Shown: piece after piece, positions 2,658 to 30,926 of the stretch | Layout: each line of letters starts with the position of its first letter | Numbering within the stretch: position 1 is the stretch's first letter | Assembly (NCBI GenBank): GCA_946186535.1 | Contig: CAMHNT010000001.1 | Span: forward strand, 1-30,926 | DNA: 30,926 bases | Direction: 5' to 3' | From: an uncultured Clostridia bacterium | GTDB lineage: Bacteria; Bacillota; Clostridia; Oscillospirales; Acutalibacteraceae | Position numbers and translations under genes: made by a program | The notes under the pieces: generated by a model | The model's input: only the letters and a program-made list of their open reading frames with translations | What the model was told of the DNA's origin: nothing | Database searches by the model: none

Positions 2658-2816
2658 TTTTTTATAAAAATGCCGGAGTGCGGCACTTTTAAGAAGTAAT
2701 ATATTGTTAAGGACTCCGTCCTTAAAACCTGCGAGGGCTCTGCCCTCGACCCGCCAGTACCCCAAGGGCACTTCCTTCGGGGCGCCTTTTGAAAAAAGCC
2801 GGGCAAAAACTTTAAC
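2658..2816 (+). repeat. Modular palindromic interspersed element, copy L1
   Basis: Head ttttataaaaatgccggagtgcggcacttttaagaagtaatatattgttaagg, gagggctctgccctc hairpin, gtaccccaagggcac module, terminal ttttgaaaaaagccgggcaaaaactttaa; matches 13113, 28433, 30802. Confidence 0.85.
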
Positions 2817-2954
2817 AGGCTTCGCAATACAAAAAGTAGGAAAAGTCCAAAAACTATAATAGAGAAAAAACCTGGCCGGGAAAAGTCCCTGTCCTCGGGC
2901 AGAGGACTTATGTCAAGAAATGAGTCCGGAATCGGGGCAAAAAAGAGGTGTTTT

Positions 2955-4250
2955 ATGTTGGAAAAAAATGAGAATCTTAAGAGAGTGCAGATCGCTGACG
3001 TTGTGTACTTTAATACGATTTTTGACGACAGATTCAAGACAAGCAGGATCGCAGTGACTATGCTTGTCGATATGGATGAAAATAAGGTTTCGGCCAATGC
3101 TATCGTGCCGAATATTCTGACCCGTTCGTGTAAAGCTTATCCGTCGTTCCTGAAACTCAGCAGAAAGCTTGATATGATGTACGGTGCTTCACTTTCGGGA
3201 TCTAACGGCAAAATGGGCGATTTTCAGGCTATAACCCTGTCTGCCGCAAGTATTGACGACAGATACAGCCTGAGCGGAGAATCTGTTTACAAAGAGCTCG
3301 GAGAGCTTTTATGCAGCGCGCTGTTCGAGCCGAATGCCGCTGACGGTGAGTTCTGTGAAGAGGATTTCAGACAGGAGCAGAGACAGCTTCTCGATTCGAT
3401 AGACGCACAGTTCAACAACAAGCGTTCGTATTCTATGAAGAGATTCCTTGAGGTTATGTTCAAGGGAGAAAAGTACGGCATAAACAAGTACGGAACAAAG
3501 GAGCAGGTTCTTGCTCTTACGGCGAAGGACGCCTATGACGCTTATGTTAATATTATAAAAACTGCGAGAGTAGAGATCATGTGCCTCGGAAGCAGCGACA
3601 CGGAAGAGATCTGTGAGCTGTTCAGGGAGAAATTCTCGGGAATTGAGAGAAATCCTCAAAAGGGCGAGACTCTCGTTATTCCAAAAGCGGAAGAGGTCAA
3701 GGAAAGAACGGACTATCTCGACGTTGTTCAGTCAAAGCTTATTATCGGTTTCAGAACCGACTGCGCCGAGCCGAGTGAAAAGGTTCAAGAGATGAAGCTT
3801 GCGTGCGCAGTTCTCGGCGGTACGGCTCATTCGAAGCTTTTCAACAATGTCCGTGAAAAGCTCAGTCTTTGCTATTATTGTCTTTCGTCATACGATTCGA
3901 ACAAGGGTATCATGTTTATCGAAAGCGGCGTTCAGAAGGAAAATATCGAAAAAGCCAAAGAGGCTATACTCAATGAGATCGAAGAGATGAAGAAGGGCAA
4001 TATCACCGATGAGGAGATGAGCAGCACAAAGCTCAGTCTTTCAAACAAATATTTAAGTTCGGTCGATTCTTCCGCAGGTACTCAGGCGTGGTACATTTCT
4101 CAGATGCTCAAGGGCAAGAAGATTTCTCCGCAGGAGGAAGCGGAGCTCATCAATGCCGTTACCAAGGAGCAGGTCATTGAGGCTGCCAACAGACTTACGC
4201 TTGATACCGTTTATGTCCTGACGAAGGACGACAGCGAGGAGGTTGAATAA
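2955..4250 (+). CDS. ymfF: M16-family peptidase-like protein, inactive subunit (YmfF type)
   Basis: No HXXEH motif; VVQSKLIIGFR and SKLFNNVREKLSLCYY typical; paired with ymfH; start moved to ATG 2955 after SD AAGAGGTG. Confidence 0.8.
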   Translation: MLEKNENLKRVQIADVVYFNTIFDDRFKTSRIAVTMLVDMDENKVSANAIVPNILTRSCKAYPSFLKLSRKLDMMYGASLSGSNGKMGDFQAITLSAASIDDRYSLSGESVYKELGELLCSALFEPNAADGEFCEEDFRQEQRQLLDSIDAQFNNKRSYSMKRFLEVMFKGEKYGINKYGTKEQVLALTAKDAYDAYVNIIKTARVEIMCLGSSDTEEICELFREKFSGIERNPQKGETLVIPKAEEVKERTDYLDVVQSKLIIGFRTDCAEPSEKVQEMKLACAVLGGTAHSKLFNNVREKLSLCYYCLSSYDSNKGIMFIESGVQKENIEKAKEAILNEIEEMKKGNITDEEMSSTKLSLSNKYLSSVDSSAGTQAWYISQMLKGKKISPQEEAELINAVTKEQVIEAANRLTLDTVYVLTKDDSEEVE

Positions 4251-5524
4251 TGGATATTAAAACTGTTGAAAGCAAGCTTGTAAAGGATAAGTATTATGTT
4301 CTCGACCACCCGTCGGGACTTACGATATATGTATATCCGAAGGAGGGCTACAAGTCAACCTACGCAATTTTCGGAACAAAATACGGTTCCGTCAATACAA
4401 GATTCAGAATAGACGACGGTGAGGAGATCACCGTTCCCGACGGTATCGCCCACTATCTCGAGCATAAGCTTTTCGAGAGCGAGGACGGCGACGCATTCGC
4501 AAGATATGCGAAAACAGGCGCAAGCGCAAATGCATATACATCGTTCGAGAAAACGTGCTATCTTTTCTCGTGTACTGAGAAGTTTGAGGAGTCGTTCGAG
4601 ATACTTCTTGACTTTGTTCAGTCGCCGTATTTTACTGCCGAAACCGTCGCAAAGGAACAGGGCATTATCGGTCAGGAAATAAAGATGTACGACGATTCTC
4701 CGAGCTGGAGAGTCATGTTCAATACGCTTCTCGGAATGTATCACAAGCACCCTGTCAGAATTGATATTGCCGGTACGGTGGAGTCTATCGCAGAGATCAC
4801 TGCCGAAAAGCTCTATGAATGCTACAACAGCTTCTACAACCTTAACAACATGGTTCTGTGCGTTGCAGGAAACACTACGGTTGAACAGGTTCTCTCGGTT
4901 GCGGACAGAATGCTGAAGCCGTGCGAAAAGCATAAAATCGAGAATTTCTTCGAGGACGAGCCTTATGAGGTTGCACAGGAATATATCGAGCAGAAATTCC
5001 CGGTTACGATCCCGCTTTTCAACCTCGGATTCAAGGAGAACATCGGCGATAAGGCGGCAACATCAAAGCAGCTTGCATATACGGATATTCTTCTCTATAT
5101 CCTTGCGTCGCAGTCAAGTCCGCTTTACAACAGGCTTCTTGACGAGGAGCTCATCAATGATTCGTTCAGCTTTGAATATATGGAAGGTCCGCACTATGCG
5201 GCGGTTCTCTTCGGCGGCGAGTCGAGAAATCCGAAGAAGGCTGCCGAGGTCATCAAGGAAGCAATAAGGGATTTCAAAAAGAACGGTATCGACAGGGAAG
5301 AATTTGAGATAGCAAAGCGTTCCGTTTACGGCAGCACGATCTCGGGTTTCAACAGCAACGAGAATATTGCGAATGTTCTTGTCGATATGCATTTCAACGA
5401 AAGAGAGCTTTTCGAATACGTTGACGCCGTGGCAAACGCAACAGCGGAGGATGTAGAAAACCGTCTCACAGAGATACTTGACCCGGATAATTGTACGCTG
5501 TCGGTTGTTCTTGGGGAAGATTGA
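4250..5524 (+). CDS. ymfH: M16-family zinc peptidase (YmfH type)
   Basis: PDGIAHYLEHKLFE (HXXEH), NAYTSFEKTCYLF, KEQGIIGQEIKMYDD; start overlaps the ymfF stop. Confidence 0.88.
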   Translation: MDIKTVESKLVKDKYYVLDHPSGLTIYVYPKEGYKSTYAIFGTKYGSVNTRFRIDDGEEITVPDGIAHYLEHKLFESEDGDAFARYAKTGASANAYTSFEKTCYLFSCTEKFEESFEILLDFVQSPYFTAETVAKEQGIIGQEIKMYDDSPSWRVMFNTLLGMYHKHPVRIDIAGTVESIAEITAEKLYECYNSFYNLNNMVLCVAGNTTVEQVLSVADRMLKPCEKHKIENFFEDEPYEVAQEYIEQKFPVTIPLFNLGFKENIGDKAATSKQLAYTDILLYILASQSSPLYNRLLDEELINDSFSFEYMEGPHYAAVLFGGESRNPKKAAEVIKEAIRDFKKNGIDREEFEIAKRSVYGSTISGFNSNENIANVLVDMHFNERELFEYVDAVANATAEDVENRLTEILDPDNCTLSVVLGED

Positions 5525-5554
5525 TTTATAATTAAATTTGAAGATATTTTTCGT

Positions 5555-5850
5555 TTAAAGTTTCGCTCAAGCCTTTTCAAAGGCTTGCGGGGTGCATGGG
5601 GCAGAGCCCCTGCTCGCTCGTCGCAACGAGCGAAACTCCTTTATGCTCCACTCAGCGGATGAGTGACGTCCCAAGAGGCAGAGCCGAAGGCGATAGCCGA
5701 TTGGCTGACGGAACTTATGCTTTAGCTGTGGGGGCAGAATAAACTTTAACATGAGATAAAGTTCGGGTGGGGGCGAACCTGCTGACAGTGGTTCGCCCCC
5801 AGGGAAAAACTTACGGTTTTAACACTTTTAACAGCCAAACAAATTAATTA
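5555..5850 (-). repeat. Modular palindromic element, copy L2 (type-1 body)
   Basis: 5592-5800 is nearly identical to the reverse complement of 19507-19715; multiple hairpins, e.g. tgggggcgaacc-tgctgacagt-ggttcgccccca. Confidence 0.9.
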
Positions 5851-5853
5851 CTG

Positions 5854-5881
5854 CCCGACTGCGATTTCGCTTGCAGTCGGG
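5854..5881 (+). terminator. GC-rich hairpin, possible terminator upstream of lgt
   Basis: cccgactgc(ga)-loop-(tt)gcagtcggg followed by ttcggtcagttttt; the U-tract is displaced, so function is uncertain. Confidence 0.4.
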
Positions 5882-5917
5882 TTCGGTCAGTTTTTAAGAA
5901 AAGAAAGGATAATTAAA

Positions 5918-6739
5918 ATGTCATCATATCATGTTGAATTTCCGGGGCTCGGGTGGAGCTTTGACGTTTCTCCGATTGCCTTTTCGATAGGGGATTTTTC
6001 GATTTATTGGTACGGTATTATCATAGCGGCAGGCTTCATTCTTGCGGTAATATACTGTATGAGAATCGCAAAGAAGCACAACGTCAACGAGGACAAGCTT
6101 TTAAACTGCGTTATCGTAGGTCTTATAACCGCCATAATCGGCGCAAGGCTTTACTACGTTTTTTTTAGCTGGGACAGCTTTAAGAACGATCCGATAAAAA
6201 TACTTAACATACACCAGGGCGGACTGGCGATATACGGAGGTCTTATCGGCGCACTGATCGGAGGACTCACGGTTGCGAAGATTCAGAAGATGAAAATTCT
6301 CCCGATCCTTGACGTTGCGGTCCTCGGTTTTCTCATCGGTCAGGGAATAGGCCGCTGGGGAAATTTCATGAATCAGGAGGCTTTTGGTTCGGAAACCGAT
6401 CTTCCGTGGAGAATGGTTTCCGAGAGAACGGGCGGTTTCGGCGTTCACCCGTGCTTTTTCTATGAATCGGTATGGTGTCTGCTCGGGTTTGTGATCCTGC
6501 ATTTTGTTCGGAAAAAACATCTTAAGTATGACGGTCAGATATTCTATATGTATCTTGTCTGGTATGGTTTTGAGAGAAGCATAGTTGAGGGGCTGCGTTC
6601 GGACAGTCTCTATCTGCCGTTTGCGCCGATAAGAGTTTCTCAGCTTCTTTCTGCTGTTCTGTTTCTTACGGGTCTGGTTCTGCTCATCGTCAACAGGAAA
6701 AAATCTATTCCTGAAACTCATGATACTAATCCCTATTAA
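5918..6739 (+). CDS. lgt: Prolipoprotein diacylglyceryl transferase
   Basis: IYWYG, GARLYYV, GGLAIYGG, GQGIGRWGNFMNQEAFG, HPCFFYES. Confidence 0.95.
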   Translation: MSSYHVEFPGLGWSFDVSPIAFSIGDFSIYWYGIIIAAGFILAVIYCMRIAKKHNVNEDKLLNCVIVGLITAIIGARLYYVFFSWDSFKNDPIKILNIHQGGLAIYGGLIGALIGGLTVAKIQKMKILPILDVAVLGFLIGQGIGRWGNFMNQEAFGSETDLPWRMVSERTGGFGVHPCFFYESVWCLLGFVILHFVRKKHLKYDGQIFYMYLVWYGFERSIVEGLRSDSLYLPFAPIRVSQLLSAVLFLTGLVLLIVNRKKSIPETHDTNPY

Positions 6740-6820
6740 AAAATAGACTTTCTACTTTTTAATAGCACCGTAGATGCATCGGGATTGTATGAGACGTCAA
6801 TTGAGCTATAACGCGTTTCT

Positions 6821-6856
6821 TTCTCTAATAGAAAGTGTCTGCTTTCTATTAGAGAA
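6821..6856. other. Perfect 15-bp inverted repeat
   Basis: ttctctaatagaaag-tgtctg-ctttctattagagaa. Confidence 0.8.
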
Positions 6857-6890
6857 TAGTATGAAACCGAATAAAAATTCCATATCTACG

Positions 6891-6929
6891 CTTCAAGGGG
6901 ACGCTCAGTCAAAGAGCGTCCCCTTGAAG
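6891..6929. terminator. Perfect 16-bp hairpin between convergent lgt and the MarR gene
   Basis: cttcaaggggacgctc-agtcaaa-gagcgtccccttgaag; its core gggacgct..agcgtccc also occurs in repeats L4 and L6a. Confidence 0.6.
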
Positions 6930-6933
6930 TTTA

Positions 6934-7392
6934 TCACTGTTCTCCGCCGTTGATTTCCCTTAATGTACCGAGAACCCTATAGAGCGTTCTGTAAAACTGT
7001 ACCGCTTCTTCCGGTTCAAGCTTCATGCACTGTCCCATAGCCGTCGGAACTTCAGCCGCTCTTTCCTTCAGACCTTCGCCCTCCTCTGTTATTGAAACAA
7101 TCAGAGCTCTCTCGTCCTTTTTCGAACGGTTTCTTTCGACATAGCCCTTGCTTTCAAGCTTTTTCAGTACAGGCGTCAGAGTTCCGGAATCAAGGAACAG
7201 CACGTCTCCGAGTTCCCTGACGTTACAGCTCTTCTTCTCCCACATAACCATCATGACAATATACTGAGTATACGTCAGGTCGAGCTTATCAAGGTGCGGC
7301 TTATAGGCTCTTATCAGCTCCTTTGCACAGGCATAAAGCGGAAAGCAGAGCTGATTTTCAAGCTTCAGACAGTCGAATTTCAAGTCCTCCAT
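6934..7392 (-). CDS. MarR-family regulator, OhrR-like peroxide sensor
   Basis: LENQLCFPLY with the OhrR-type sensing Cys, LTYTQYIVMMVMWE, LDSGTLTPVLKKLE, DER; start ATG 7392 after SD AAGGGGAG. Confidence 0.85.
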   Translation of the reverse strand: MEDLKFDCLKLENQLCFPLYACAKELIRAYKPHLDKLDLTYTQYIVMMVMWEKKSCNVRELGDVLFLDSGTLTPVLKKLESKGYVERNRSKKDERALIVSITEEGEGLKERAAEVPTAMGQCMKLEPEEAVQFYRTLYRVLGTLREINGGEQ

Positions 7393-7411
7393 AGTTCTCC
7401 CCTTCAAATGT

Positions 7412-8515: not shown

Positions 8516-8581
8516 TTATTTGTTCAACACCCTTTTACCAATATTCTCAAAAAGCCTTATCCTCAAGACCCTTATGACATA

Positions 8582-8851: not shown

Positions 8852-8852
8852 A

Positions 8853-9326: not shown

Positions 9327-9359
9327 ATATGTCACTCCCTGTACATAAATTTACAAGTG

Positions 9360-9419: not shown

Positions 9420-9480
9420 CAGGATTTTTAAATATTCTCTGAGAAATTATTGCCAAATATTCATAGAATTTTTTGGCAAT

Positions 9481-9516: not shown

Positions 9517-9559
9517 CCGCTAAAATCCAATTTCAATTATTTTAAACCAAAAACATAGC

Positions 9560-10236: not shown

Positions 10237-10242
10237 CAAAAG

Positions 10243-10324
10243 TGCGAGTGACGGGACTTGAACCCGTACGTCATACAACACACGCCCCTCAAACGTGCCT
10301 GTCTGCCAATTCCAGCACACTCGC
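10243..10324 (-). tRNA. tRNA-Leu(GAG), copy 1
   Basis: Acceptor GCGAGTG/CACTCGC, D loop GAATTGGCAGA, anticodon stem CACGT/GCGTG with loop TT-GAG-GG, long variable arm, T arm ACGGG-TTCAAGT-CCCGT; CCA not encoded. Confidence 0.96.
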
Positions 10325-10374
10325 ATATAAACTCTTTTCGTTCCCGACTTCATGTCGTTCACTCAACGAATAAT

Positions 10375-10403
10375 ATAATAACACATAATTTTGCTTTTGT
10401 CAA
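10375..10403 (-). promoter_or_regulatory. SigA promoter of tRNA-Leu copy 1
   Basis: TTGACA-17 bp-TATTAT. Confidence 0.75.
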
Positions 10404-10448
10404 CAGTTTTTCGAAAAATTTTTCCGAAAAATCAAATTTAAAAAAATA

Positions 10449-10474
10449 AAAAGAGCTACTAAAAGTAACTCTTT
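10449..10474 (-). terminator. Intrinsic terminator of tRNA-Leu copy 2
   Basis: aaagagttact-ttt-agtagctcttt followed by a T run on the minus strand. Confidence 0.7.
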
Positions 10475-10481
10475 CAAAAAG

Positions 10482-10563
10482 TGCGAGTGACGGGACTTGA
10501 ACCCGTACGTCATACAACACACGCCCCTCAAACGTGCCTGTCTGCCAATTCCAGCACACTCGC
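10482..10563 (-). tRNA. tRNA-Leu(GAG), copy 2, identical to copy 1
   Basis: Same cloverleaf; offset 239 bp. Confidence 0.96.
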
Positions 10564-10613
10564 ATATAAACTCTTTTCGTTCCCGACTTCATGTCGTTCA
10601 CTCAACGAATAAT

Positions 10614-10642
10614 ATAATAACACACATTTAAGATTTTGTCAA
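10614..10642 (-). promoter_or_regulatory. SigA promoter of tRNA-Leu copy 2
   Basis: TTGACA-17 bp-TATTAT; spacer differs from copy 1. Confidence 0.75.
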
Positions 10643-10691
10643 CCTTATTTTTCAAATTTTTTTATTTTTATAAAGAAATTTTTATTTAAAA

Positions 10692-13081: not shown

Positions 13082-13112
13082 TTTTCAGCACAACCTTTTA
13101 AAGATTTTATTA

Positions 13113-13250
13113 GAGTAATATATAATTAAGGGCTTTGCCCTTAAAAAACCACGAGGGCTCTGCCCTCGACCCGCCAACTTTTAAAAAAGTTGGATCAAAA
13201 CTTTAACCGTCCTTTTTCAGACTTTTTGCGGTTTTAAAATTTGTTCGTTT
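13113..13250 (+). repeat. Modular palindromic element, copy L3 (short form)
   Basis: gagtaatatataattaagggctttgcccttaa, gagggctctgccctcgacccg, ccaacttttaaaaaagttgg, atcaaaactttaaccgtcc plus a degenerate tail. Confidence 0.85.
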
Positions 13251-13327
13251 TATGTATGAACATTCGTTCAGCTTTGATTCACTATAATAAATTTCCATAT
13301 AATTTGATTTAAATTTCCTTAAAATTT

Positions 13328-13357
13328 ATTATAACACAACAATATATATGTTGTAAA
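13328..13357 (-). promoter_or_regulatory. Candidate promoter of the ABC operon with an internal palindrome
   Basis: TTTACA-18-TATAAT with an extended TG; ACAACA-N7-TGTTGT at 13336-13354. Confidence 0.5.
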
Positions 13358-13386
13358 GAAGCTAAATGTTAAGAAAAATAAAACAA

Positions 13387-13413
13387 AAAGGCAGGAAAAA
13401 ACTTCCTGCCTTT
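13387..13413 (-). terminator. Terminator of the kinase gene
   Basis: aaaggcaggaa-aaaac-ttcctgccttt perfect 11-bp stem with a T run on the minus strand. Confidence 0.75.
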
Positions 13414-17796: not shown

Positions 17797-18196
17797 ATAA
17801 GAAATGAGCAAATTTGAAAATTACACAAAGAGGTTTGAAAGAGAACAGTTAAAGTTTTTGACGCACTTTTTTCAAAAAGTGCGCAGGATCCAAGGGCAGC
17901 GCCCTTGGTCGCCGTCCGTAGACGGCGAAACTCTCTTAGCGTTCAGCCCTTTGCAAGGGTGAATTTCAAAAACAGTCCGGCGGACTGTTTTTGAAAGAGG
18001 GACGCTTTGGCAGAAAGCGTCCCTTCCCCAAGGTAAAAAAACAAACTTTTCTCGCCGCTCCAAGGCGACTTGATCAAGTATATTTTTAAACTGTTCACAT
18101 GTTTTTTACTCATTCCGAAAACCTTCCCTTGGGTACAAAGCCCTTAACGATATATTACTCATAAAAAATGCCGCAATGCGGCATTTGTATAAAACC
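17797..18196 (-). repeat. Modular palindromic element, copy L4 (~400 bp, head to tail, type-2 body)
   Basis: Head at 18127-18196 (minus), body 17895-18030 matching 21885-21990, terminal hairpin gcactttttgaaaaaagtgc, tail atttgctcattt at 17802-17813. Confidence 0.8.
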
Positions 18197-18211: not shown

Positions 18212-19405
18212 ATGCTTAAAAATAAAACCATCGTTCTTGCGGTCAGCGGAAGCATTGCCGCCTACAAAATTGCCAACCTCGCGAGAATGTGCAAAAAACT
18301 CGGCGCCGATGTTCAGGTTCTCATGACTCAAAATGCCACAAATTTCATAAACCCCATCACTTTTGAAAGTCTCACCGGAAACAAGTGCCTTGTTGATACA
18401 TTCGACAGAAATTTTCAGTACAGCGTCGAGCATGTCGCTCTTGCGAAAAAATCCGATGTTGTAATGCTTGCCCCGGCGAGCGCAAACGTTATAGGAAAAA
18501 TCGCAAACGGCATTGCGGACGATATGCTTACCACAACCGTCATGGCGTGCCCGTGCAAAAAAATTGTGTCGCCTGCAATGAACCACAATATGTATCACAA
18601 TCCTATCGTACAGGACAACATCAAAAAGCTCGCTCATTTCGGATATGAGATAGTCGCTCCCGACAACGGCATGCTTGCAAACGGCGATATCGGAGACGGA
18701 AGAATGCCCGATGAAAGCGTTCTCCTACAGTATATTTTAAAAGAATGTGCATTTGAAAAGGACATGACAGGCGAGAAAGTTCTCGTTACGGCAGGCGCAA
18801 CCCGTGAGCCTATCGACCCTGTTCGCTTCATCACAAACCACTCTACGGGAAAAATGGGCTATGCTGTTGCAGAAAATGCAGCTCGCAGGGGTGCAGAGGT
18901 AACGCTCGTCACGGCGCACGCAGACATAGAACCACCTATGTTCGTAGACGTTGTAAAAGTATCAACTGCACAGGAGATGTTTGATGAGGTAACATCACGC
19001 TTCGAGGAAAGCACGATTGTTGTGAAGGCGGCGGCCGTTGCGGATTACCGTCCGAAAACCGTCGCAGACAATAAAATCAAAAAGTCGGACGGTGAAGCTG
19101 TTATCGAGCTTGAAAGAACGCCCGATATTCTGGCGGAGCTTGGCAGGAGAAAGAGCCGGCAGTTTCTTTGCGGTTTTTCCATGGAAACCGAAAATCTTGT
19201 GGAAAACTCAAGAGGAAAGCTTCTCCGGAAAAATCTTGACATGATAGCCGCAAACAATCTGAAAACCCGTGGCGCAGGGTTCGGAACAGACACAAACGTT
19301 GTTACCCTTATAACCCAGAACAACATAAAAGAGCTTGATATCATGAGCAAGCAGGAAGTCGCAGGGGCTATATTCGATGAGATTCTGAGAATAAAAAAAC
19401 AGTAA
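18212..19405 (+). CDS. coaBC: Bifunctional phosphopantothenoylcysteine decarboxylase/synthetase
   Basis: VSGSIAAYK, PASAN, PAMN, VTAGATREPIDPVRFITNHSTGKMG, AAVADY; SD GGAGG. Confidence 0.96.
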   Translation: MLKNKTIVLAVSGSIAAYKIANLARMCKKLGADVQVLMTQNATNFINPITFESLTGNKCLVDTFDRNFQYSVEHVALAKKSDVVMLAPASANVIGKIANGIADDMLTTTVMACPCKKIVSPAMNHNMYHNPIVQDNIKKLAHFGYEIVAPDNGMLANGDIGDGRMPDESVLLQYILKECAFEKDMTGEKVLVTAGATREPIDPVRFITNHSTGKMGYAVAENAARRGAEVTLVTAHADIEPPMFVDVVKVSTAQEMFDEVTSRFEESTIVVKAAAVADYRPKTVADNKIKKSDGEAVIELERTPDILAELGRRKSRQFLCGFSMETENLVENSRGKLLRKNLDMIAANNLKTRGAGFGTDTNVVTLITQNNIKELDIMSKQEVAGAIFDEILRIKKQ

Positions 19406-19455: not shown

Positions 19456-19782
19456 ATAAGTTAACCTGTTGTGCTATTAAAAGTGTTAAAACCATAAGAA
19501 ATTCTATGGGGGCGAACCACTGTCAGCAGGTTCGCCCCCACCCGAACTTTATCTCATGTTAAAGTTTATTCTGCCCCCACAGCTAAAGCATAAGTTCCGT
19601 CAGCCAATCGGCTATCGCCTTCGGCTCTGCCTCTTGGGACGTCACTCATCCGCTGAGTGGAGCATAGGGAATTTCGCTCGTTGCGACGAGCGAGCAGGGG
19701 CTCTGCCCCATGCACTGGTGTAAAACCACTAGGCTTCGCCGTCGCCCGCCAACTTTTGAAAAAGTTGGATCAAAACTTTAAT
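19456..19782 (+). repeat. Modular palindromic element, copy L5 (type-1 body)
   Basis: Inverted near-copy of 5592-5850; ends ccaacttttgaaaaagttggatcaaaactttt. Confidence 0.9.
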
Positions 19783-19810
19783 ATTGTTTTTAATAGCATA
19801 AAGCGTTAAG

Positions 19811-20584
19811 TTATGTATTAACCATAGCGTCCTTAACGCTCTTCACAAAATCATAAACATACGGTACGGAATCCTCTCCGTGCTCAGCAATGATTTTTAC
19901 AATAGCCGAGCCGATAATAATACCGTCCGCCTTCTTTGAAATATCGGCGGCCTGCTCGGGCGTTGAGATACCGAAACCTACTGCGACAGGGACGTCTGTG
20001 TTCTCTCTTACCTTCTTGACGATAGCTCCGATATCGGTCGTAATGCTGCTTCTCATGCCGGTAACGCCGAGCGACGAAACGCAGTAGATGAAGCCCTTTG
20101 CGTCCTTTGCGATAGTTGAAATTCTGTCGTCGGAAGTCGGTGCGATGAGAGAGATGAAATCAATTCCGTACTGCTCGCATACCGCCGCAAACTCTTCCTT
20201 CTCCTCAAAAGGCACGTCGGGAAGAATAATTCCGCTCATTCCGACCTCCGCCGAGGTTTTCACAAAACGCTCGATACCGTAGGAAAAAACAACGTTTGCA
20301 TACGTCATAAAAACAAGCGGTATGGACAGCTTCGGGCGGACTCTTCTTACCATATCGAATATCTTGTCTGTGGTAACTCCTGCCGACAATGCTCTGATGT
20401 TTGCTCCCTGAATTACGGGGCCCTCGGCTGTCGGGTCGGAGAAAGGAATACCAAGCTCAATCAGGTCTACTCCGCCTTTCTCCATTGTGAGGAGAATTTC
20501 CTCGGTTGTTTCGAGGTTCGGATCACCGCAGGTGATGAAAGATATAAATGCTTTTTTGTTGTTGAATGCGTCTGCCGTTCTCAT
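19811..20584 (-). CDS. trpA: Tryptophan synthase alpha chain
   Basis: [42 protein letters not shown]. Confidence 0.97.
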
Positions 20585-21765: not shown

Positions 21766-21814
21766 AATTTTCAGCTCCTTTTTATTTACTCTTAATAATT
21801 CAAGTTTTTCACCA

Positions 21815-21990
21815 TTTAAAGTTTTGATCCAACTTTTTCAAAAGTTGGCGGATTCCAAAGGCAGAGCCTTTGGTCGGCGGTCGCAACCGCCGAAACACCT
21901 TAGCGTTCAGCCCTCTGCAAAGGGTGAAGCCGAAAACAGTCCGGGGGACTGTTTTCGGAGAGGGAACGCTCTGGCAGAGAGCGTTCCCTA
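21815..21990 (-). repeat. Modular palindromic element, copy L6a (type-2 body)
   Basis: Collinear with 17851-18030: terminal hairpin, ggcagagcc, cggcggt-cgca-accgccg, aacagtcc-ggactgtt, gggaacgctct-agagcgttccc. Confidence 0.88.
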
Positions 21991-22010
21991 AATCGGGAGA
22001 ACAAATTGCT

Positions 22011-22230
22011 ATAAGTTAACCTGTTGTGCAATTAAAAGTGTCTAAACCGTAAGTTTTTCCATGGGGGCGAACCACTGTCAGCAGGTTCGCCCCCACCCAA
22101 ACTTGGTTTCAGGTGAAAGTTTATTCTCCGCTGAGTGGAGAATAAAGGAGTTTAGCTCGTTGCGACGAGCGACCAAAGGCTCTGCCTTTGGAAACCGCAA
22201 GCCTTTGAAAAGGCTTGTGCGAAACTTTAA
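22011..22230 (+). repeat. Modular palindromic element, copy L6b (type-1 body lacking a 77-bp module)
   Basis: Collinear with 19456-19700 except for 19573-19649; ends caagcctttgaaaaggcttg..aaactttaa two bases from the trpF stop. Confidence 0.88.
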
Positions 22231-22232
22231 TA

Positions 22233-23618: not shown

Positions 23619-23619
23619 A

Positions 23620-24455: not shown

Positions 24456-24470
24456 ACGTTTTATTCACCA

Positions 24471-24857: not shown

Positions 24858-24990
24858 TGTGCTTCACCTCTCTGTAATTTTTTCATTAACCCTGTTCTGT
24901 ATCTTTGATTATTTTTTAGTATTATATCTCCAATCATGCCTACAAGGCATATCAAATATATGCACCTTGTAAGCATAATACCTTTAAAAA

Positions 24991-25995: not shown

Positions 25996-26564
25996 TTTGA
26001 TGTTACCTCCAGAAAGTTTTTGATTATTGTATTGCCGTCCGGCGTTAAAATCGATTCGGGGTGAAACTGAAGTCCATAAACCGGATAGTCTTTGTGGCGT
26101 ACAGCCATGATTTCGCCGTCGTCCGCCACGGCTATGATATTAAGTTTTTCGGGGAAATTTTCCTCCCGTGCGGAAAGCGAATGATAGCGTGCGACCTGAA
26201 TATTCTCGGGAAGGCTTTCGAATATTTCGTCCTTTTCGATTTTCACGATTGACGACTTTCCGTGAAAAAGTTTCTTTGCGTATGAAACGGTCGCTCCGAA
26301 TGCTTCGCATATCGATTGATGTCCAAGACAAACGCCCAGGATAGGGAACTTGTCATAAAGCTTCTTTACAGTCTCAATGCAAACTCCTGCGTCCGACGGT
26401 TTTCCCGGACCGGGGGACAAAATAATATGAGAGGGATTCAGGGCTTCGATTTCCTCGACCGTCATTGCGTCGTTCCGGATAACCTTGATATCGGGGTTTA
26501 TTGCACCGATTGCCTGATATAAATTATATGAAAAGCTGTCGTAATTATCAATAAGTAAAATCAT
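25992..26564 (-). CDS. trpG: Anthranilate synthase component II
   Basis: LLIDNYDSF, SPGPG, GVCLGHQ, RYHSL, QFHPES. Confidence 0.96.
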   Translation of the reverse strand: MILLIDNYDSFSYNLYQAIGAINPDIKVIRNDAMTVEEIEALNPSHIILSPGPGKPSDAGVCIETVKKLYDKFPILGVCLGHQSICEAFGATVSYAKKLFHGKSSIVKIEKDEIFESLPENIQVARYHSLSAREENFPEKLNIIAVADDGEIMAVRHKDYPVYGLQFHPESILTPDGNTIIKNFLEVTSK

Positions 26565-28024
26565 TTTCCTGCCTCCTCAAGCGCATTGACTACCGCCTTA
26601 GCTTTGTTTATGCATTCCTGATATTCCTTTTCGGGAACGGAATCCGCAACGATTCCTGCGCCCGAGCGGACAAAAACTCTGCCGTTTTTCTTGAATGCAA
26701 GACGAATTGCAATGCATGTATCCATATCGCCGTTGAAGGCAAGATATCCGATAGCTCCGCCGTAAATGCCTCTCTTGTTGTTTTCGCTTTCGCTGATGAT
26801 CTCACAAGCCTTGATTTTCGGTGCGCCAGAAAGCGTGCCGGCAGGAAGAACCGCTCCGATTGCGTCGAGTCCGTCACAGTCCTCACGGATCTCGCCGCTT
26901 ACGGCCGAACCGATATGCATAACGTGTGAGTAGCGTTCGATGTTCATGTACTTGTCAACTCTTACGGTACCGAACTTCGATATTTTTCCCAGATCGTTTC
27001 TGCCGAGGTCGACGAGCATATTGTGCTCCGCAAGCTCCTTCTCGTCTGCGAGAAGCTCCTTTTCAAGTGCAATATCCTCTTCTTCCGTTTTTCCTCTCGG
27101 ACGTGTTCCGGCGAGCGGATACGTCGTAACGGTATTGTTTTCAAGCTTCACGAGAGTTTCGGGAGAAGCGCCTGCGATTTCAACGTCGTCGCTTGAGAAA
27201 TAGAACATATACGGAGAAGGATTTGTTTCCCTGAGCGTGCAGTATGTGTAGAACAGACTTCCCTCGTATTTTGCGGCAACTCTGTTTGAAAGAACGACCT
27301 GGAAAATATCTCCTTCGAAGATTCTGTGCTTTGCGTTTTCAACCATATCACAGAAAGCTTCCTTGTCAAAAAGCGGAGCGAGCGGCTCAAGGAGTCTGCC
27401 CTTTTCCTCACGCTTAGTCTCACCGTCGGCAAGTATCCTCGACATAGCCTTAAGGTCGAGCAAAGCCTTGTTGTAGCTTGTTTCAAGGTCATCGGTCTTG
27501 ACGTTTACGATATAGATAATCTCGTTTTTCTCGTTGTCAACGGCGATGACTTTGTCAAAAAGCATAAGGTCAACGTCACAGAAATTCTCTTCGTCGAGAA
27601 TATCGAAATTAAGCTGCGGTTCGCTGTATTTAATATAATCAAAAGCGAAGTAGCCGACCAGACCGCCCGTGAACGGAGGAAGATTTTCAATCTTCGGAGA
27701 CTTGTTTTCATCGAGAATTTTCCGGATATAGAAGTTAGGGTCAGAGTTCTCGAAGGTCAGGTCTGTTCCCGAACGAAGTCTGACGCTGCCGTTTCTGCAT
27801 GTAAGCTCCAGACTCGGGTCGAAGCCTAAAAATGTATAGCGGCCGTTCGGCGTATTTTTCTCTGCCGAATCGAGAATGAAAACATTGTGACTGATATTTT
27901 TCAGGATCCTGTAAATTTCGATTTCGGAAATGCTGCATTTTTCTGTGAAAGTCAACGGAACCGACCTGAATTCTCCGCTTTCTGCAAGCTTAAAGATTTC
28001 TTCCTTTAACGGATAAAAACTCAT
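26561..28024 (-). CDS. trpE: Anthranilate synthase component I
   Basis: GDIFQVVLS, NPSPYM, GTRPRG, EHNMLVDLGRNDL; true start ATG 28024 after SD AGGAGG; the ORF-track extension lies in the T-box leader. Confidence 0.95.
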   Translation of the reverse strand: MSFYPLKEEIFKLAESGEFRSVPLTFTEKCSISEIEIYRILKNISHNVFILDSAEKNTPNGRYTFLGFDPSLELTCRNGSVRLRSGTDLTFENSDPNFYIRKILDENKSPKIENLPPFTGGLVGYFAFDYIKYSEPQLNFDILDEENFCDVDLMLFDKVIAVDNEKNEIIYIVNVKTDDLETSYNKALLDLKAMSRILADGETKREEKGRLLEPLAPLFDKEAFCDMVENAKHRIFEGDIFQVVLSNRVAAKYEGSLFYTYCTLRETNPSPYMFYFSSDDVEIAGASPETLVKLENNTVTTYPLAGTRPRGKTEEEDIALEKELLADEKELAEHNMLVDLGRNDLGKISKFGTVRVDKYMNIERYSHVMHIGSAVSGEIREDCDGLDAIGAVLPAGTLSGAPKIKACEIISESENNKRGIYGGAIGYLAFNGDMDTCIAIRLAFKKNGRVFVRSGAGIVADSVPEKEYQECINKAKAVVNALEEAGK

Positions 28025-28057
28025 ATTGATAACCTCCTGTAATTGTCGGAGAACGAC

Positions 28058-28360
28058 AAAAAAACCGTCCCCGACAGATAGTAAAAAATCTGTCAAGGAC
28101 GGATAATAATTCACCCGTGGTGCCACCTTGATTTACGGCGAAAAGCCGTACACTCTGCGAAATACTGACATATTTCCGGCTACTGACGTAAGCCAACACG
28201 TCATAGAATACTCGGCACTGTCCGCATTAAAAGCATATGCGGAAAAGCCTTTGACTATGCCCTCAGCGACCCATTTAATAAGCAGTAACCGCCCGGTTCC
28301 CAGCACCCCGAGCTCTCTGTGCGTTCTTTTCTTATTTTTATCTTCGCCTCAACGGTTTTA
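28058..28360 (-). promoter_or_regulatory. Trp T-box riboswitch leader with terminator
   Basis: Stem I elements AGAGAG and GGTGCTGGGAACC, specifier UGG at 28271-28273, T-box AAGGTGGCACCACGG at 28115-28129, terminator ccgtcc..gacagat..atctgtc..ggacgg + T7 at 28058-28102. Confidence 0.92.
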
Positions 28361-28378
28361 TGTTAAATTGTAATTTTT

Positions 28379-28407
28379 ATTGTATCACTTTATAAAAATG
28401 ATGTCAA
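28379..28407 (-). promoter_or_regulatory. SigA promoter of the trp operon
   Basis: TTGACA-17-TACAAT with an extended TG. Confidence 0.85.
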
Positions 28408-28432
28408 GACATTTTTTGAATATTTGTGCAAT

Positions 28433-28651
28433 GCATTTTTAAGAAGTAATATGATGTTAAGGGCTTCGCCCTTAAAAAAACACCGCACTGCAATAGGAAC
28501 ACCTTTGGTGTTCCGTCGCCGTCTCTGCCTCTTGACTCCGCCAGTACCCCAAAGGCACTTCCTTCGGGGCGCATTTTGAAAAAGCTGGGCAAAAACTTTA
28601 CCGGTTCTCTTTCAGACATTTTACGCAATTTTCATATTTGCTCATTTATAG
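28433..28651 (+). repeat. Modular palindromic element, copy L7
   Basis: gcatttttaagaagtaatatgatgttaagggcttcgcccttaa head, ccgccagtaccccaaaggcacttccttcggggcgc shared with L1, terminal module, tail atttgctcatttatag. Confidence 0.85.
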
Positions 28652-28655
28652 TTTA

Positions 28656-29255
28656 TTACTTCGCATTCTTAATAAACTCAAAATTATCCTTAATATAAAT
28701 CACGCCCGAAACAACCGTCAGCACAGCCGACATCCAGAGAAGCGACTGATTGACAATATTCATTATATTCTGCATACTCGAAATTGTTTCAGCCGGCGCA
28801 CTAAAAACGCCCATTGAAAACAGCTCCAGAATATAGCCGCTTAGAAGCACGACAATTATCGCGATCATCTGACTTACCGTCTTCGCCTTGCCCCAGATAT
28901 TTGCGGCGACTACCTTACCGCTTTCAACCGCAACAAGCCTTATCGACGTAACGGTAAACTCCCTGAAAAGCACGAGGATTATAAAAACCGCATTAACAAT
29001 GTTCAGCTGAATGAAACATGCGAACGCCGAAATAACGAGGATCTTGTCCGCAAGCGGATCGGCGAATTTTCCGAAATCGGTGACCATATTATATTTTCTC
29101 GCAATCTTTCCGTCGAGCATATCCGTAATAGATGCGACCGCAAATATTATCAGCGCTATCAGATAATGATGCGGTATATTCTCAAGCAAAAGAAACACTA
29201 CGAAAAACGGCACCAAAATAATTCTCAAAAGAGTAAGTTTGTTAGGTAAATTCAA
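28656..29255 (-). CDS. pgsA: CDP-diacylglycerol--glycerol-3-phosphate 3-phosphatidyltransferase
   Basis: NLPNKLTLLR, TDMLDGKIARK, FGKFADPLADK, REF; TTG 29255 after SD GGGGGAG. Confidence 0.95.
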   Translation of the reverse strand: MNLPNKLTLLRIILVPFFVVFLLLENIPHHYLIALIIFAVASITDMLDGKIARKYNMVTDFGKFADPLADKILVISAFACFIQLNIVNAVFIILVLFREFTVTSIRLVAVESGKVVAANIWGKAKTVSQMIAIIVVLLSGYILELFSMGVFSAPAETISSMQNIMNIVNQSLLWMSAVLTVVSGVIYIKDNFEFIKNAK

Positions 29256-29286
29256 TTCTGCTCCCCCATTCATTTTCGATATCCAC

Positions 29287-29371
29287 GCAAGCTTTTTGAA
29301 AAAAGCCTGGCAAAAACTGTAACCGTCCTCTTTTCAACTTTTTGTGCAATTTGAAAATTTGCTTATTTATA
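29287..29371 (+). repeat. Terminal fragment of the element family, L8
   Basis: cgcaagctttttgaaaaaagcctggcaaaaactgtaaccgtcctc...atttgcttatttata parallels 28572-28651. Confidence 0.7.
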
Positions 29372-29412
29372 TTTTTAAAAAGCCATATCTAATCGGACAG
29401 CTCCGGTCTCTG

Positions 29413-30744
29413 TCAGTAAAGCATCTCGCCGATCGGGTCACAGTCGAGGAAATCATCGACCCTGACTCTGATTATGTCTCCCTCTCTCGGCTTTGCGTCG
29501 GAGCATGTGAAAAACACCTTTCCGTCAACGTCGGGCGAATCCGCCTTACTTCTTCCGAAGAAGCACTCGGCATAGCGATCGAATCCCTCAACGAGAACCT
29601 CAAGCTCTTTTCCGAGCAGAGCTTCGTTGTATTTCTCCATGATGAACTGCTGCTGTTCCATGAGAATTTCCGCACGGCGTTCCTTGACCTCTTCGTCAAT
29701 CTGATTCGGCATTCTTGCCGCAGGCGTATCCTCCTCCTGGGAATATGGGAAACAACCCATTCTTTCGAATTTTATATCGTTCACGAACTCGGAAAGCTCC
29801 GTGAACTGCTCCTCCGTCTCTCCGGGGAATCCCGTGATAAATGTCGTTCTGAGAACAAGTCCCGGAATTCTCTCTCTGAGCTTTTTAATAAGTTCCGTCA
29901 GCTCCTCGCGATTTCCCTTTCTGCACATTCTCTTTAAAACTGCACCGTCACAGTGCTGCAAAGGCATATCTATATATTTCAGAAGCTTATCCTCCGTCGC
30001 AAAAACATCGATAAGTTCATCGGTAATACATTCTGGATAGCAGTAAAGAACTCTCACCCATTCAATACCGTCAATCTTACATAGCTCTCTCAGAAGCGCC
30101 GCAAGCCTGTATTCGCCGTAAAGATCAACGCCGTACTTTGTAGTATCCTGAGCGATAACGATAAGCTCCTTTACGCCGTTTTCGGCAAGCTGCTTCGCCT
30201 CGGCAACGATATTCTCCGTCTCACGGCTTCTGTAGCGGCCTCTTATCATCGGTATCGCACAGTATGTACATTTGTTGTCGCAGCCCTCGGCTATTTTTAG
30301 ATACGCATAATAGTACGACGTACTCTGAATTCTTCCTCCCTCAAGCGGCAGCTGACGCTTGTCTGGGAAAGTCTCAACCTTTTCTTTTTCGAGAACCTTT
30401 GCGACAACGCTTGCGATATCCACGTTTCCGCCGATGCCGACTACGGCGTCTATCTCATAAAGCTCCTTCATCATCTGATCTCTGTATCTTTCGGCAAGAC
30501 ATCCCGTTGCGATGATAGCTTTTATTTTTCCTTCTTTTTTAAGCAGCGCAAGCTCCAGTATTTCGTCAATACTTTCCTGCTTTGCGCTCTCAATAAAACC
30601 GCATGTGTTGACGATAGCGACGTCCGCCATAGCGACGTCCTCAACGATTTTGTATCCTGCCTGACGAAGCGTAAAAAGCATCATCTCGGCGTCAACACGG
30701 TTCTTTGCACAGCCAAGGCTGACAATTCCGACTGTATATGCCAT
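29413..30744 (-). CDS. rimO: Ribosomal protein S12 methylthiotransferase
   Basis: SLGCAKN, IVNTCGFIESAKQES, radical-SAM CDNKCTYC, C-terminal TRAM with SPDVDG; upstream of pgsA. Confidence 0.95.
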   Translation of the reverse strand: MAYTVGIVSLGCAKNRVDAEMMLFTLRQAGYKIVEDVAMADVAIVNTCGFIESAKQESIDEILELALLKKEGKIKAIIATGCLAERYRDQMMKELYEIDAVVGIGGNVDIASVVAKVLEKEKVETFPDKRQLPLEGGRIQSTSYYYAYLKIAEGCDNKCTYCAIPMIRGRYRSRETENIVAEAKQLAENGVKELIVIAQDTTKYGVDLYGEYRLAALLRELCKIDGIEWVRVLYCYPECITDELIDVFATEDKLLKYIDMPLQHCDGAVLKRMCRKGNREELTELIKKLRERIPGLVLRTTFITGFPGETEEQFTELSEFVNDIKFERMGCFPYSQEEDTPAARMPNQIDEEVKERRAEILMEQQQFIMEKYNEALLGKELEVLVEGFDRYAECFFGRSKADSPDVDGKVFFTCSDAKPREGDIIRVRVDDFLDCDPIGEMLY

Positions 30745-30783
30745 TTCTCAATACCCCTCTCGAAACGTTGTTTTATTTTAATG

Positions 30784-30926
30784 CTATAAATGAGCAAATG
30801 GTTTTATAAAAATGCCACAGTGCGGCATTTTTCAGGAGTAATATTTTGTTAAGGGATTAGCCCTTAATATCCCACGAGGGCGCTGTACCCCAAGGGCACT
30901 TGGCTTCGCCGGCGCAACTCGACCTG
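30784..30926 (+). repeat. Modular palindromic element, copy L9 (cut by the window end)
   Basis: ctataaatgagcaaat, then head ttttataaaaatgccacagtgcggcatttttcaggagtaatattttgttaaggg, and gtaccccaagggcac module. Confidence 0.85.

What the first reader, a model, noticed from the sequence alone, without database searches (positions are those of the whole stretch)
2658..30926. Dense family of modular palindromic interspersed elements with shared ends and swappable interiors
Ten related loci are visible: 2658-2816, 5555-5850, 13113-13250, 17797-18196, 19456-19782, 21815-21990, 22011-22230, 28433-28651, 29287-29371 and 30784-end. Five carry a head module (aaaaatgcc..gcggcattttt-GAGTAATAT..GTTAAGGG, partial in some). 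Nine carry a terminal module (hairpin centred on TTTGAAAA, then CAAAACTTTAA). Four continue into a ~55-bp AT-rich tail ending ATTTGCTCATTT. Interiors are different strings of short hairpins drawn from a common pool. All copies are intergenic and occur in both orientations. This resembles REP/BIME/REPIN-like or MITE-like DNA, but I know of no formal description of this mosaic family. The mobilising enzyme is not in the window; an HUH Y1 (RAYT/IS200-like) or DDE enzyme acting in trans is a hypothesis only.
Basis: partly seen in the sequence, partly recalled or inferred. Interest (0 to 1): 0.78.

Follow-up and report, generated by a model that had tools for sequence, protein, structure and literature searches.

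The report
Mosaic hairpin MITE family, rumen bacterium
The ten flagged stretches are real copies of a genome-wide family of small non-coding jumping elements built from interchangeable DNA hairpins, and one 27-base hairpin inside them occurs letter for letter in bacteria of several other phyla, which no known mechanism explains.

Summary
Observation confirmed. All ten loci share modules. The family fills the 2.15-Mb rumen Bacillota MAG: about 280 regions, about 130 terminal hairpins, and 95 contig ends lying in copies.

Full-length copies (190-300 bp) have terminal inverted repeats (C-TATAAATGAGCAAAT). Six of them have perfect 7-bp target-site duplications. The scaffold is therefore a true MITE, moved by a DDE-type enzyme rather than an HUH/RAYT one. 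No partner transposase was found.

The interior is an ordered string of hairpin slots. Each slot has several fully compensated stem alleles, and these reassort between copies, which points to recombination.

Copies are 92% intergenic and show no orientation bias. They are patchy within the genus (0-81 copies) and absent from an orthologous site in about 20 sister species.

Unexpected: a nested 27-nt unit (TACCCCAAGGGCACTTCCTTCGGGGCG) has 31 exact copies here. The same unit occurs in Thiodiazotropha, Desulfobacteraceae, Patescibacteria and others, always inside lineage-specific repeats and sometimes as 27-nt tandem arrays. In Gammaproteobacteria the same repeat exists in precise empty and filled forms. 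A second hairpin (AAAACAGTCCGnnGGACTGTTTT) is also shared widely.

No match in Rfam, plasmid or phage collections, or the papers searched. Earlier notes of this scan report similar unexplained cross-phylum hairpins on other DNA.

The parts
2658..2816 (+). Locus A. Head (terminator-like hairpin 2668-2692, AGTAATAT, TTAAGG..CCTTAA hairpin), then the GAGGGCTCTGCCCTC hairpin, the nested 27-nt unit (2758-2784, forward), the terminal TTTTGAAAAAA hairpin and CAAAAACTTTAA.
   Evidence: (D2, D3, D5, D9, D13)
2816..2950 (+). Continuation of locus A into two other repeat families: GAAAAGTCCAA..ATAGAGAGAAAC with 35 copies, and GGAATCGGGGTAAAAA with 59 copies. It ends at the ribosome-binding site of the next gene.
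   Evidence: families 4, 12, 16
5555..5850 (-). Locus B, in reverse orientation. Terminal module variant (GCGAAACTTTAA), three ordered hairpins, the 77-nt inserted module (5660-5735) and the GGGGGCGAACC..GGTTCGCCCCC hairpin.
   Evidence: I1, I2, I4, I6, I11
13104..13250 (+). Locus C. A partial head without the terminator hairpin, the GAGGGCTCTGCCCTC hairpin, a terminal hairpin without the 27-nt unit, and a degenerate tail.
   Evidence: (D2, D5, D13)
17797..18196 (-). Locus D. Right-end inverted repeat (17799-17813), tail, terminal hairpin, HP2, HP3, and an 89-nt block holding the AAAACAGTCCGGCGGACTGTTTT hairpin (17969-17991). The head in reverse orientation (18138-18196) abuts the ribosome-binding site of the gene at 18212.
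   Evidence: (D7, I5, I7-I9, I17)
19456..19814 (+). Locus E. It has its own 27-nt inverted ends (19456-19482 and 19788-19814). It also holds a 206-nt block 95% identical to locus B in inverse orientation, the 77-nt module (19573-19649) and a terminal module.
   Evidence: I1, I6, I10, I21, D4, D10
21815..21990 (-). Locus F, between trpB and trpF. Terminal module, HP2, HP3 and the 89-nt block with the AAAACAGTCCGGGGGACTGTTTT hairpin (21933-21955).
   Evidence: (D7, I3, I10, I12, I23)
22011..22230 (+). Locus G. Same type as E but without the 77-nt module (an uninterrupted 10-bp stem around 22120-22146). Ends in the terminal module variant.
   Evidence: D4, D10, I2, I4, I11
28433..28651 (+). Locus H. 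Partial head, interior hairpins, the 27-nt unit (core 28547-28569, one mismatch), terminal hairpin, and a tail with the right-end inverted repeat (28636-28650).
   Evidence: (D3, D5, D9, I8, I17)
29287..29371 (+). Locus I. Terminal hairpin, tail and a degenerate right-end inverted repeat only. It lies in a 142-nt spacer that is 2-50 nt long, and lacks the element, in about 20 sister species.
   Evidence: (D6, I7)
30784..30926 (+). Locus J, cut by the contig end. Left-end inverted repeat (30785-30799), head, then a half unit (GTACCCCAAGGGCACTT) fused to a GGCTTCGCCGGCGCAACT module.
   Evidence: (D3, I5)

Best explanation
The loci are copies and fragments of a family of non-autonomous transposable elements (MITEs) in a rumen Bacillota genome.

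Structure of a complete copy (190-300 bp, no ORF):
- It starts C-TATAAATGAGCAAAT and ends with the inverse of that sequence.
- A second inverted repeat, TTG[TC]ACAAAAAGTTT, lies about 20-35 bp inside each end.
- It is flanked by a 7-bp AT-rich duplication of the target.
- From that structure I infer (not shown) that a DDE-type transposase supplied in trans moves it by staggered cuts.

Interior:
- The interior is an ordered series of short GC-rich hairpin slots: a head with a terminator-like hairpin, then HP3, HP2, and the terminal TTTTGAAAA hairpin followed by CAAAACTTTAA.
- Each slot has several alleles whose two stem halves changed together.
- The alleles occur in nearly all combinations. 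Recombination or gene conversion between the many copies is the likeliest source of the mosaics (inferred from the combinations).

Nested pieces:
- Smaller pieces are nested in the copies, including a 77-nt module and a 27-nt REP-like hairpin unit.
- The 27-nt unit sits at one fixed point of the terminal hairpin in either orientation.
- The unit behaves as an insertion/deletion unit of its own. It is found unchanged in other phyla.
- Its mover is unknown.
For: Shown directly:
- About 20 full-length copies have bipartite terminal inverted repeats.
- Six copies have perfect 7-bp flanking direct repeats and two more have one mismatch. Control 7-mers average 4.9 mismatches out of 7.
- About 130 terminal hairpins exist, with at least 6 fully compensated stem alleles.
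- The three hairpin slots are aligned, and their alleles occur in four-gamete combinations.
- 92% of repeat bases lie outside ORFs, and orientation relative to neighbouring genes is even (30 co-oriented, 27 opposed).
- The end repeat is present in only 10 of 23 genomes of the genus, at 0-81 copies. Interior blocks are present in 19 of 22.
- At an orthologous site the element is present here and absent in about 20 sister species.
- A precise 77-nt indel separates loci B and E from locus G (I2/I4 against D4/D10).
- Of the terminal hairpins, 76 lack the 27-nt unit, 19 carry it forward and 12 carry it reversed, always at the same point.
- In gammaproteobacterial MAGs the same repeat exists with and without exactly these 27 nt.
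Against: - No transposase with these ends was found. The IS630-like, IS5-like and ISL3 copies in the genome have other ends. Relatives rich in the element showed no transposase gene on a contig listed with these ends.
- The MAG is only 89% complete and its contigs break at repeats.
- The target duplication is clean in only 6-10 of about 20 full-length copies.
- Most copies, including most in the window, are fragments, or carry other ends (loci B, E, F, G).
- Recombination is inferred from allele combinations only.
- No strain-level excision or insertion allele was seen in public runs.
Confidence: 0.68

Rival explanations
1. REP/BIME/REPIN-type system. The hairpins are repetitive extragenic palindromes that are cut and copied as single-stranded DNA by a RAYT (Y1 HUH) enzyme, and the mosaics are BIME-like arrays.
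For: - The elements are short imperfect palindromes, strictly extragenic and highly repeated, and they form mosaic arrays.
- The 27-nt unit looks like a REP: a 4-nt tag (CGTA) followed by a bulged hairpin.
- The unit forms tandem arrays and shows precise indels.
Against: - No Y1_Tnp (PF01797) match in the own genome, the Patescibacteria MAG or the Ruminococcus MAG that carry the unit.
- Where IS200 is present (Thiodiazotropha), the one copy examined lies beside a unit-bearing MITE and is not flanked by units.
- The large elements have terminal inverted repeats and 7-bp duplications, which HUH enzymes do not make.
- The hairpins are many different sequences, not one REP in alternating orientation.
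Confidence: 0.12
2. A family of cis-acting structured RNAs (terminators, attenuators or mRNA stabilisers). Its copies are kept for gene control, and the covariation reflects RNA structure.
For: - Stems are compensated in all three hairpins.
- The head hairpin, with A and T runs on both sides, looks like a bidirectional terminator.
- Copies sit right after stop codons or before ribosome-binding sites.
- The elements are present in metatranscriptome contigs.
Against: - Orientation relative to genes is even (30 against 27).
- Terminal inverted repeats and target duplications are present.
- Copy number ranges from 0 to 81 among sister species, and orthologous sites are empty.
- No Rfam family matches.
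- Depth in the RNA library mirrors depth in the DNA libraries, so it does not show specific expression.
Confidence: 0.1
3. The cross-phylum identity of the 27-nt unit and of the CAGTCC hairpin does not reflect mobility. These would be optimal binding or structure motifs for a universal host factor that arise or are kept independently. The window family would then be only a local MITE.
For: - Copies are almost invariant within and between phyla: 5-87 copies per genome, mostly with 0 mismatches. That fits strong sequence selection.
- No enzyme co-occurs with the unit.
- The CAGTCC hairpin has the form of a perfect bidirectional terminator.
Against: - A 25-nt exact match in more than 10 lineages cannot arise independently by chance.
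- The unit is very patchy: 1 of 200 other genomes of the order, and 8 of 23 of the genus.
- It shows precise 27-nt filled and empty alleles and 27-nt tandem arrays, which are marks of insertion.
Confidence: 0.1

Closest known systems
Bacterial MITEs, e.g. Correia elements of Neisseria and RUP of Streptococcus pneumoniae (from my own knowledge)
   Same: Small (100-300 bp), non-coding, high copy number and intergenic. They have terminal inverted repeats and target-site duplications, can sit inside operons, and depend on a transposase supplied in trans.
   Different: The duplication here is 7 bp and AT-rich, not TA. The ends (C-TATAAATGAGCAAAT) match no IS found in this genome or its relatives. 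The interior is a string of reassorting hairpin slots instead of one fixed sequence.
BOX elements of Streptococcus pneumoniae (boxA, variable numbers of boxB, boxC; from my own knowledge)
   Same: A modular build with conserved outer modules and a variable middle. They are intergenic, form hairpins, are numerous, and have no known mover.
   Different: BOX varies by the number of one repeated module. Here each slot has alternative alleles with compensated stems. There is no sequence likeness, and here inverted ends and target duplications are present.
REP / BIME / REPIN elements with RAYT transposases (Nunvar et al. 2010, PMC2817692, listed)
   Same: Short extragenic imperfect palindromes that combine into mosaics. 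The 27-nt unit has the REP form (a tetranucleotide tag plus a bulged hairpin) and makes arrays.
   Different: No RAYT or Y1 gene is present here. REP sequences are specific to a species or clade, whereas this unit is identical across phyla. The mosaics are not alternating copies of one REP.
Neisseria intergenic mosaic elements (NIMEs: RS units between dRS3 repeats; from my own knowledge)
   Same: Intergenic arrays assembled from a pool of interchangeable short units. Recombination is thought to shuffle them.
   Different: NIME units are bounded by one 20-bp repeat (dRS3) that serves as a recombinase target. No such common boundary is seen here.

Membership tests
MITE (non-autonomous DDE-type element) | Terminal inverted repeats | tested here: met
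   About 20 full-length copies have C-TATAAATGAGCAAAT at one end and its inverse at the other, plus a sub-terminal inverted repeat.
MITE (non-autonomous DDE-type element) | Target-site duplication of fixed length | tested here: met
   Six copies have perfect 7-bp direct repeats and two have one mismatch. Control 7-mers average 4.9 of 7 mismatches.
MITE (non-autonomous DDE-type element) | Small, non-coding, many copies | tested here: met
   Copies are 190-300 bp. There are about 130 terminal modules and 283 regions, and 92% of repeat bases lie outside ORFs.
MITE (non-autonomous DDE-type element) | A parent IS with the same ends | tested here: inconclusive
   None was found in the own genome or in 4-5 relatives for DDE_3, DDE_Tnp_1, rve, ISL3 or Transposase_mut. 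The IS copies that are present have other ends. These are incomplete MAGs.
REP/REPIN with RAYT | A RAYT (Y1 HUH) gene, usually flanked by the REPs | tested here: not met
   PF01797 is absent from the own genome and from 2 of 5 other carriers of the 27-nt unit. The IS200 copy examined in Thiodiazotropha is merely adjacent.
REP/REPIN with RAYT | A 20-40-nt imperfect palindrome with a conserved tetranucleotide, extragenic, in many copies | tested here: met
   The 27-nt unit is a bulged hairpin with CGTA/TA at its foot. It has 57-62 copies here and is intergenic.
BIME | The same REP in alternating orientation separated by set linkers | tested here: not met
   The slots hold different hairpins in a fixed order, not alternating copies of one.
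IS200/IS605-derived palindrome-associated elements | Hairpin ends, no inverted terminal repeats, no target duplication, and TnpA and/or TnpB in the genome | tested here: not met
   Inverted ends and 7-bp duplications are present. PF01797 and PF07282 are absent from the own genome.
Any Rfam RNA family | Match at or near the gathering score | tested here: not met
   There were no matches at the gathering score in the window. E-value searches of loci A, B and D and of unit arrays gave only chance-level hits.

The most novel reading that the evidence does not exclude
The 27-nt unit consists of the 23-nt core CCCCAAGGGCACTTCCTTCGGGG plus a repeated CGTA, or a TA and CG foot. The same may hold for other small hairpins such as AAAACAGTCCGnnGGACTGTTTT. 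On this reading they form a class of ultra-small mobile DNA that crosses phylum borders. They insert precisely into or beside existing hairpins of local repeats, in either orientation. Each insertion recreates the target, which would explain the 27-nt tandem arrays. An enzyme that is not a recognised transposase would copy them. Mosaic families like the one in this window would then be built largely by accretion of such units.
Probability: 0.3. Interest if true: 0.85.

Novelty: new variant of a known kind. Interest (0 to 1): 0.66.

Why it matters
1. Assembly and genome content. These repeats make up 2-4% of a small rumen genome and break its assembly at about 95 contig ends. Models of the family would therefore improve MAG assembly and annotation in this genus.

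2. A natural case of repeat evolution. The family shows a MITE scaffold whose hairpin slots carry compensated alleles that reassort. It can be used to study how repeated DNA evolves by recombination and how structure is kept.

3. An open mechanistic question. A 27-nt hairpin is identical in Bacillota, Pseudomonadota, Desulfobacterota, Campylobacterota and Patescibacteria, and it has precise filled and empty sites. This asks for a mover or a selective force that is not yet described. Other windows of this scan gave similar unexplained cases, so the phenomenon may be general and can now be tested.

Tried and rejected
RNA families and literature:
- Rfam at gathering score and at E-value threshold on the window, on loci A, B and D, and on unit arrays gave nothing.
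- Text searches for the unit sequence and for descriptions of such repeats gave nothing relevant.
- ISfinder could not be queried.

Sequence collections:
- Plasmid and phage collections by blastn gave no match.
- IMG/VR scans for the unit and for the terminal module gave no match.

Transposase searches:
- Y1_Tnp and TnpB are absent from the own genome.
- The IS630-like (contig C123), IS5-like (C28) and ISL3 (C46) copies have other ends.
- Searches for rve and Transposase_mut in relatives gave no gene on a contig listed with the MITE ends.

Strain-level alleles:
- The only other contig found with the same protein is 99.76% identical and has no indel.
- Laying Logan contigs of four bovine runs gave high depth over the elements and many cross-copy joints, but no clean excision allele.

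Other points considered:
- Replichore bias: orientation of the unit against position on the closed Thiodiazotropha chromosome shows no obvious pattern (judged by eye).
- Outward promoters in the tail: I found only poor matches by eye and dropped the idea.
- Correction of my own interim note. I wrote that the CAGTCC hairpin nearly always caps a longer hairpin. This does not hold: only some contexts are hairpin tips.
Full report
**What is there**

The window is the whole of contig C1 of a MAG of 2.15 Mb in 306 contigs, 89% complete. The host is a Bacillota bacterium found in bovine gut and rumen metagenomes.

- Five loci carry a head: a hairpin AAAAATGCCGCAnTGCGGCATTTTT, then AGTAATAT, then a TTAAGGGC..GCCCTTAA hairpin.
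- Nine loci carry a terminal hairpin centred on TTTTGAAAA followed by CAAAACTTTAA.
- Four loci carry an AT-rich tail.
- All loci lie between ORFs, in both orientations.

**Extent**

- The ten loci hit 283 merged regions on 160 of 306 contigs, and 95 contig ends lie in copies.
- An annotation-free count of 13-mers with 6 or more copies marks 777 regions totalling 91 kb (4.2%) and shows at least 20 repeat modules.
- Only 8% of repeat bases lie in long ORFs, against 83% for the genome.
- Locus D has matches in 19 of 22 other species of the genus. It has none in the two other genera of the family that were searched, and matches in one genome of another family of the order.

**The scaffold is a MITE**

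- Aligning all terminal modules and heads showed that the tail ends in ATTTGCTCATTTATA-G. Several heads are preceded by the inverse, C-TATAAATGAGCAAAT.
- About 20 copies of 190-300 bp have both ends, plus a second inverted repeat (TTG[TC]ACAAAAAGTTT) inside each end.
- Six of these are flanked by perfect 7-bp AT-rich direct repeats, for example TTGGTAA, TAAGTAA and TTTGAAT. Two more have one mismatch. Control 7-mers differ at 4.9 of 7 places on average.
- Inverted ends plus a fixed-length target duplication are the mark of DDE-type transposition. They do not fit HUH Y1 enzymes, which leave no duplication (established knowledge of IS200/IS605 and RAYTs).
- The end sequence is present in only 10 of 23 genomes of the genus, at 0 to 81 copies.
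- Locus I lies between a radical-SAM gene and a CDP-alcohol phosphatidyltransferase gene. There the own genome has a 142-nt spacer holding the element, while about 20 sister species have spacers of 2-50 nt without it.
- Those species differ too much for the junction to be read, and the one near-identical public contig shows no indel.

**The interior is modular and reassorts**

- 130 terminal hairpins were found. Beyond the T/A run, the stem occurs in at least six fully compensated versions, including CCAGC/GCTGG, CAAGCC/GGCTTG, GCGCAC/GTGCG, CCAAC/GTTGG, CAAGC/GCTTG and CCGGC/GCCGG.
- An alignment of 49 distinct copies shows three ordered hairpin slots separated by short conserved linkers. Each slot has alternative compensated alleles.
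- The alleles occur in nearly all pairings. All four combinations are present for HP1 with HP2 and for HP2 with HP3.
- This is best explained by recombination or gene conversion among copies. That step is inferred.
- Orientation relative to flanking genes is even: 30 co-oriented, 27 opposed, and 10 and 10 for the two mixed gene arrangements. This argues against a strand-specific RNA role.
- Larger nested pieces exist. A 77-nt module is present in loci B and E and precisely absent in G, where a 10-bp stem is intact. That module is itself a repeat with 34 copies (family 14).
- Not all copies share the same ends. Locus E has its own 27-nt inverted ends (I21), and at least three different sequences can follow CAAAACTTTAA.

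**No mover found**

- Y1_Tnp and TnpB are absent from the own genome.
- An IS630-like copy (contig C123), an IS5-like copy (C28) and an ISL3 fragment (start of C46) have other ends.
- The ends of the IS5-like copy are the sequence of another abundant repeat family (TAAGGCAACACC..., 59 copies). So IS-MITE pairs do exist in this genome.
- In relatives rich in the MITE, no transposase gene lies on a contig listed with the MITE ends.
- All of these are MAGs that break at repeats, so absence is weak evidence.

**The 27-nt unit**

- The commonest 13-mers of the genome belong to TACCCCAAGGGCACTTCCTTCGGGGCG. There are 57-62 copies with up to 2-3 mismatches, and 31 have an exact core.
- At the terminal hairpins, 76 have no unit, 19 have it forward and 12 reversed. 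The unit always sits between the 5' stem arm and the T run, in four or more stem alleles. It also sits in two unrelated repeat families.
Hosts include Candidatus Thiodiazotropha, other Gammaproteobacteria, Betaproteobacteria (Dechloromonas, Paraburkholderia), Desulfobacteraceae including the closed genome of Desulfosarcina widdelii, Campylobacterales, Patescibacteria and a Ruminococcus MAG.
- In five such genomes there are 5-87 copies, mostly without any mismatch. The backwards control gave zero.
- The flanks differ between lineages. Apart from the unit, these loci share no high-copy repeat 15-mer with the own genome's repeats.
- The unit is embedded in lineage-specific repeats, often at the centre of a foldback or next to an inverted end. 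In Thiodiazotropha and its relatives it forms tandem arrays with a 27-nt period.
- In gammaproteobacterial MAGs one repeat family exists both as ...TTATTCG-TAG... and as ...TTATTCG-[27 nt]-TAG.... This is an exact 27-nt difference with CGTA on both sides.
- If insertion duplicates CGTA (or TA), each copy recreates its target, which would explain the arrays. This is inference.
- In the own genome the junctions are NGTA-core-CGCC, with one base change beside the unit and no clear duplication.
- The unit is patchy: 1 of 200 other genomes sampled from the order and 8 of 23 in the genus. Sister species carry a one-base variant in a different repeat family.
- It is absent from IMG/VR.
- Y1 transposases occur in only 3 of 5 carriers. 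The one IS200 copy examined next to units is a neighbour, not a partner.

**A second shared hairpin**

- AAAACAGTCCGnnGGACTGTTTT occurs in loci D and F and at about 43 sites in the genome.
- It has more than 120 exact hits in metagenome contigs, in at least 15 unrelated contexts. It has none in 300 other Bacillota genomes sampled.
- About ten hits share the wider 89-nt block of loci D and F.
- Others lie in elements of 140-200 nt placed after tRNA genes, with the tRNA 3' end repeated.
- I did not resolve these.

**Comparison with known kinds**

- The scaffold meets the definition of a MITE, apart from a known parent IS.
- The modular build recalls pneumococcal BOX elements, Neisseria NIMEs and enterobacterial BIMEs, but the family fails the BIME and REP/RAYT tests.
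- The 27-nt unit has the form of a REP. However, REPs are clade-specific and tied to a RAYT, and neither holds here.
- There is no match in Rfam, in plasmids or phages, or in the papers searched.
- Earlier AI notes of this scan describe similar unexplained cross-phylum hairpins on other genomes. I used them as leads only.

**Verdict**

The family is a new MITE family with an unusual slot-and-allele interior. It is a new variant of a known kind, of moderate interest in itself. The nested 27-nt unit, with its cross-phylum identity and its precise filled and empty sites, is the surprising part and remains unexplained.

Noticed in passing
window 2816-2950: Two further repeat families lie directly before the ribosome-binding site of the gene at about 2956. 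One is GAAAAGTCCAA..ATAGAGAGAAAC (35 copies). The other is a 57-nt family containing TTGACAT and ending GGAATCGGGGTAAAAA (59 copies). They may carry promoter or leader sequence.
   Followed up: partly
window 10238-10662: A 239-bp tandem duplication (94% identity) carries two tRNA-Leu(GAG) genes on the minus strand. ARAGORN finds them, but the Rfam gathering scan of the window returned nothing.
   Followed up: partly
own genome contig C28:3226-4367 (not in the window): An IS5-like element (DDE_Tnp_1) has inverted ends that are the sequence of repeat family TAAGGCAACACCGCACAAAGACC (59 copies). This looks like an IS-MITE pair. That family also hosts the one-base variant of the 27-nt unit.
   Followed up: partly
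L139:1826-2040 and L201:4420-4830 (human-gut and other metagenome contigs): Elements of about 140-200 nt containing the AAAACAGTCCGG.GGACTGTTTT hairpin sit just after tRNA genes. They are followed by a repeat of the tRNA 3' end plus its terminator, once in tandem. This resembles tiny integrated elements or local duplications at tRNA genes.
   Followed up: partly
L256 (Ca. Thiodiazotropha chromosome, between rnhA and dnaQ): A MITE with ends CTAGGGCCTG..CAGGCCCTAG carries one to five 27-nt units. An IS200 copy is inserted right beside one such MITE.
   Followed up: partly
window 6744-6930 and 13326-13387: More multi-copy segments are present, among them a hairpin CAAGGGGACGCTC..GAGCGTCCCCTTG whose core AGAGCGTCCCCT has 43 copies in the genome.
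   Followed up: no
window 21766-22232: Two elements back to back (loci F and G) separate trpB from trpF inside the trp operon. Public bovine metagenome and metatranscriptome contigs cover this stretch 25-50 times deeper than the flanking genes, which reflects copies elsewhere.
   Followed up: partly
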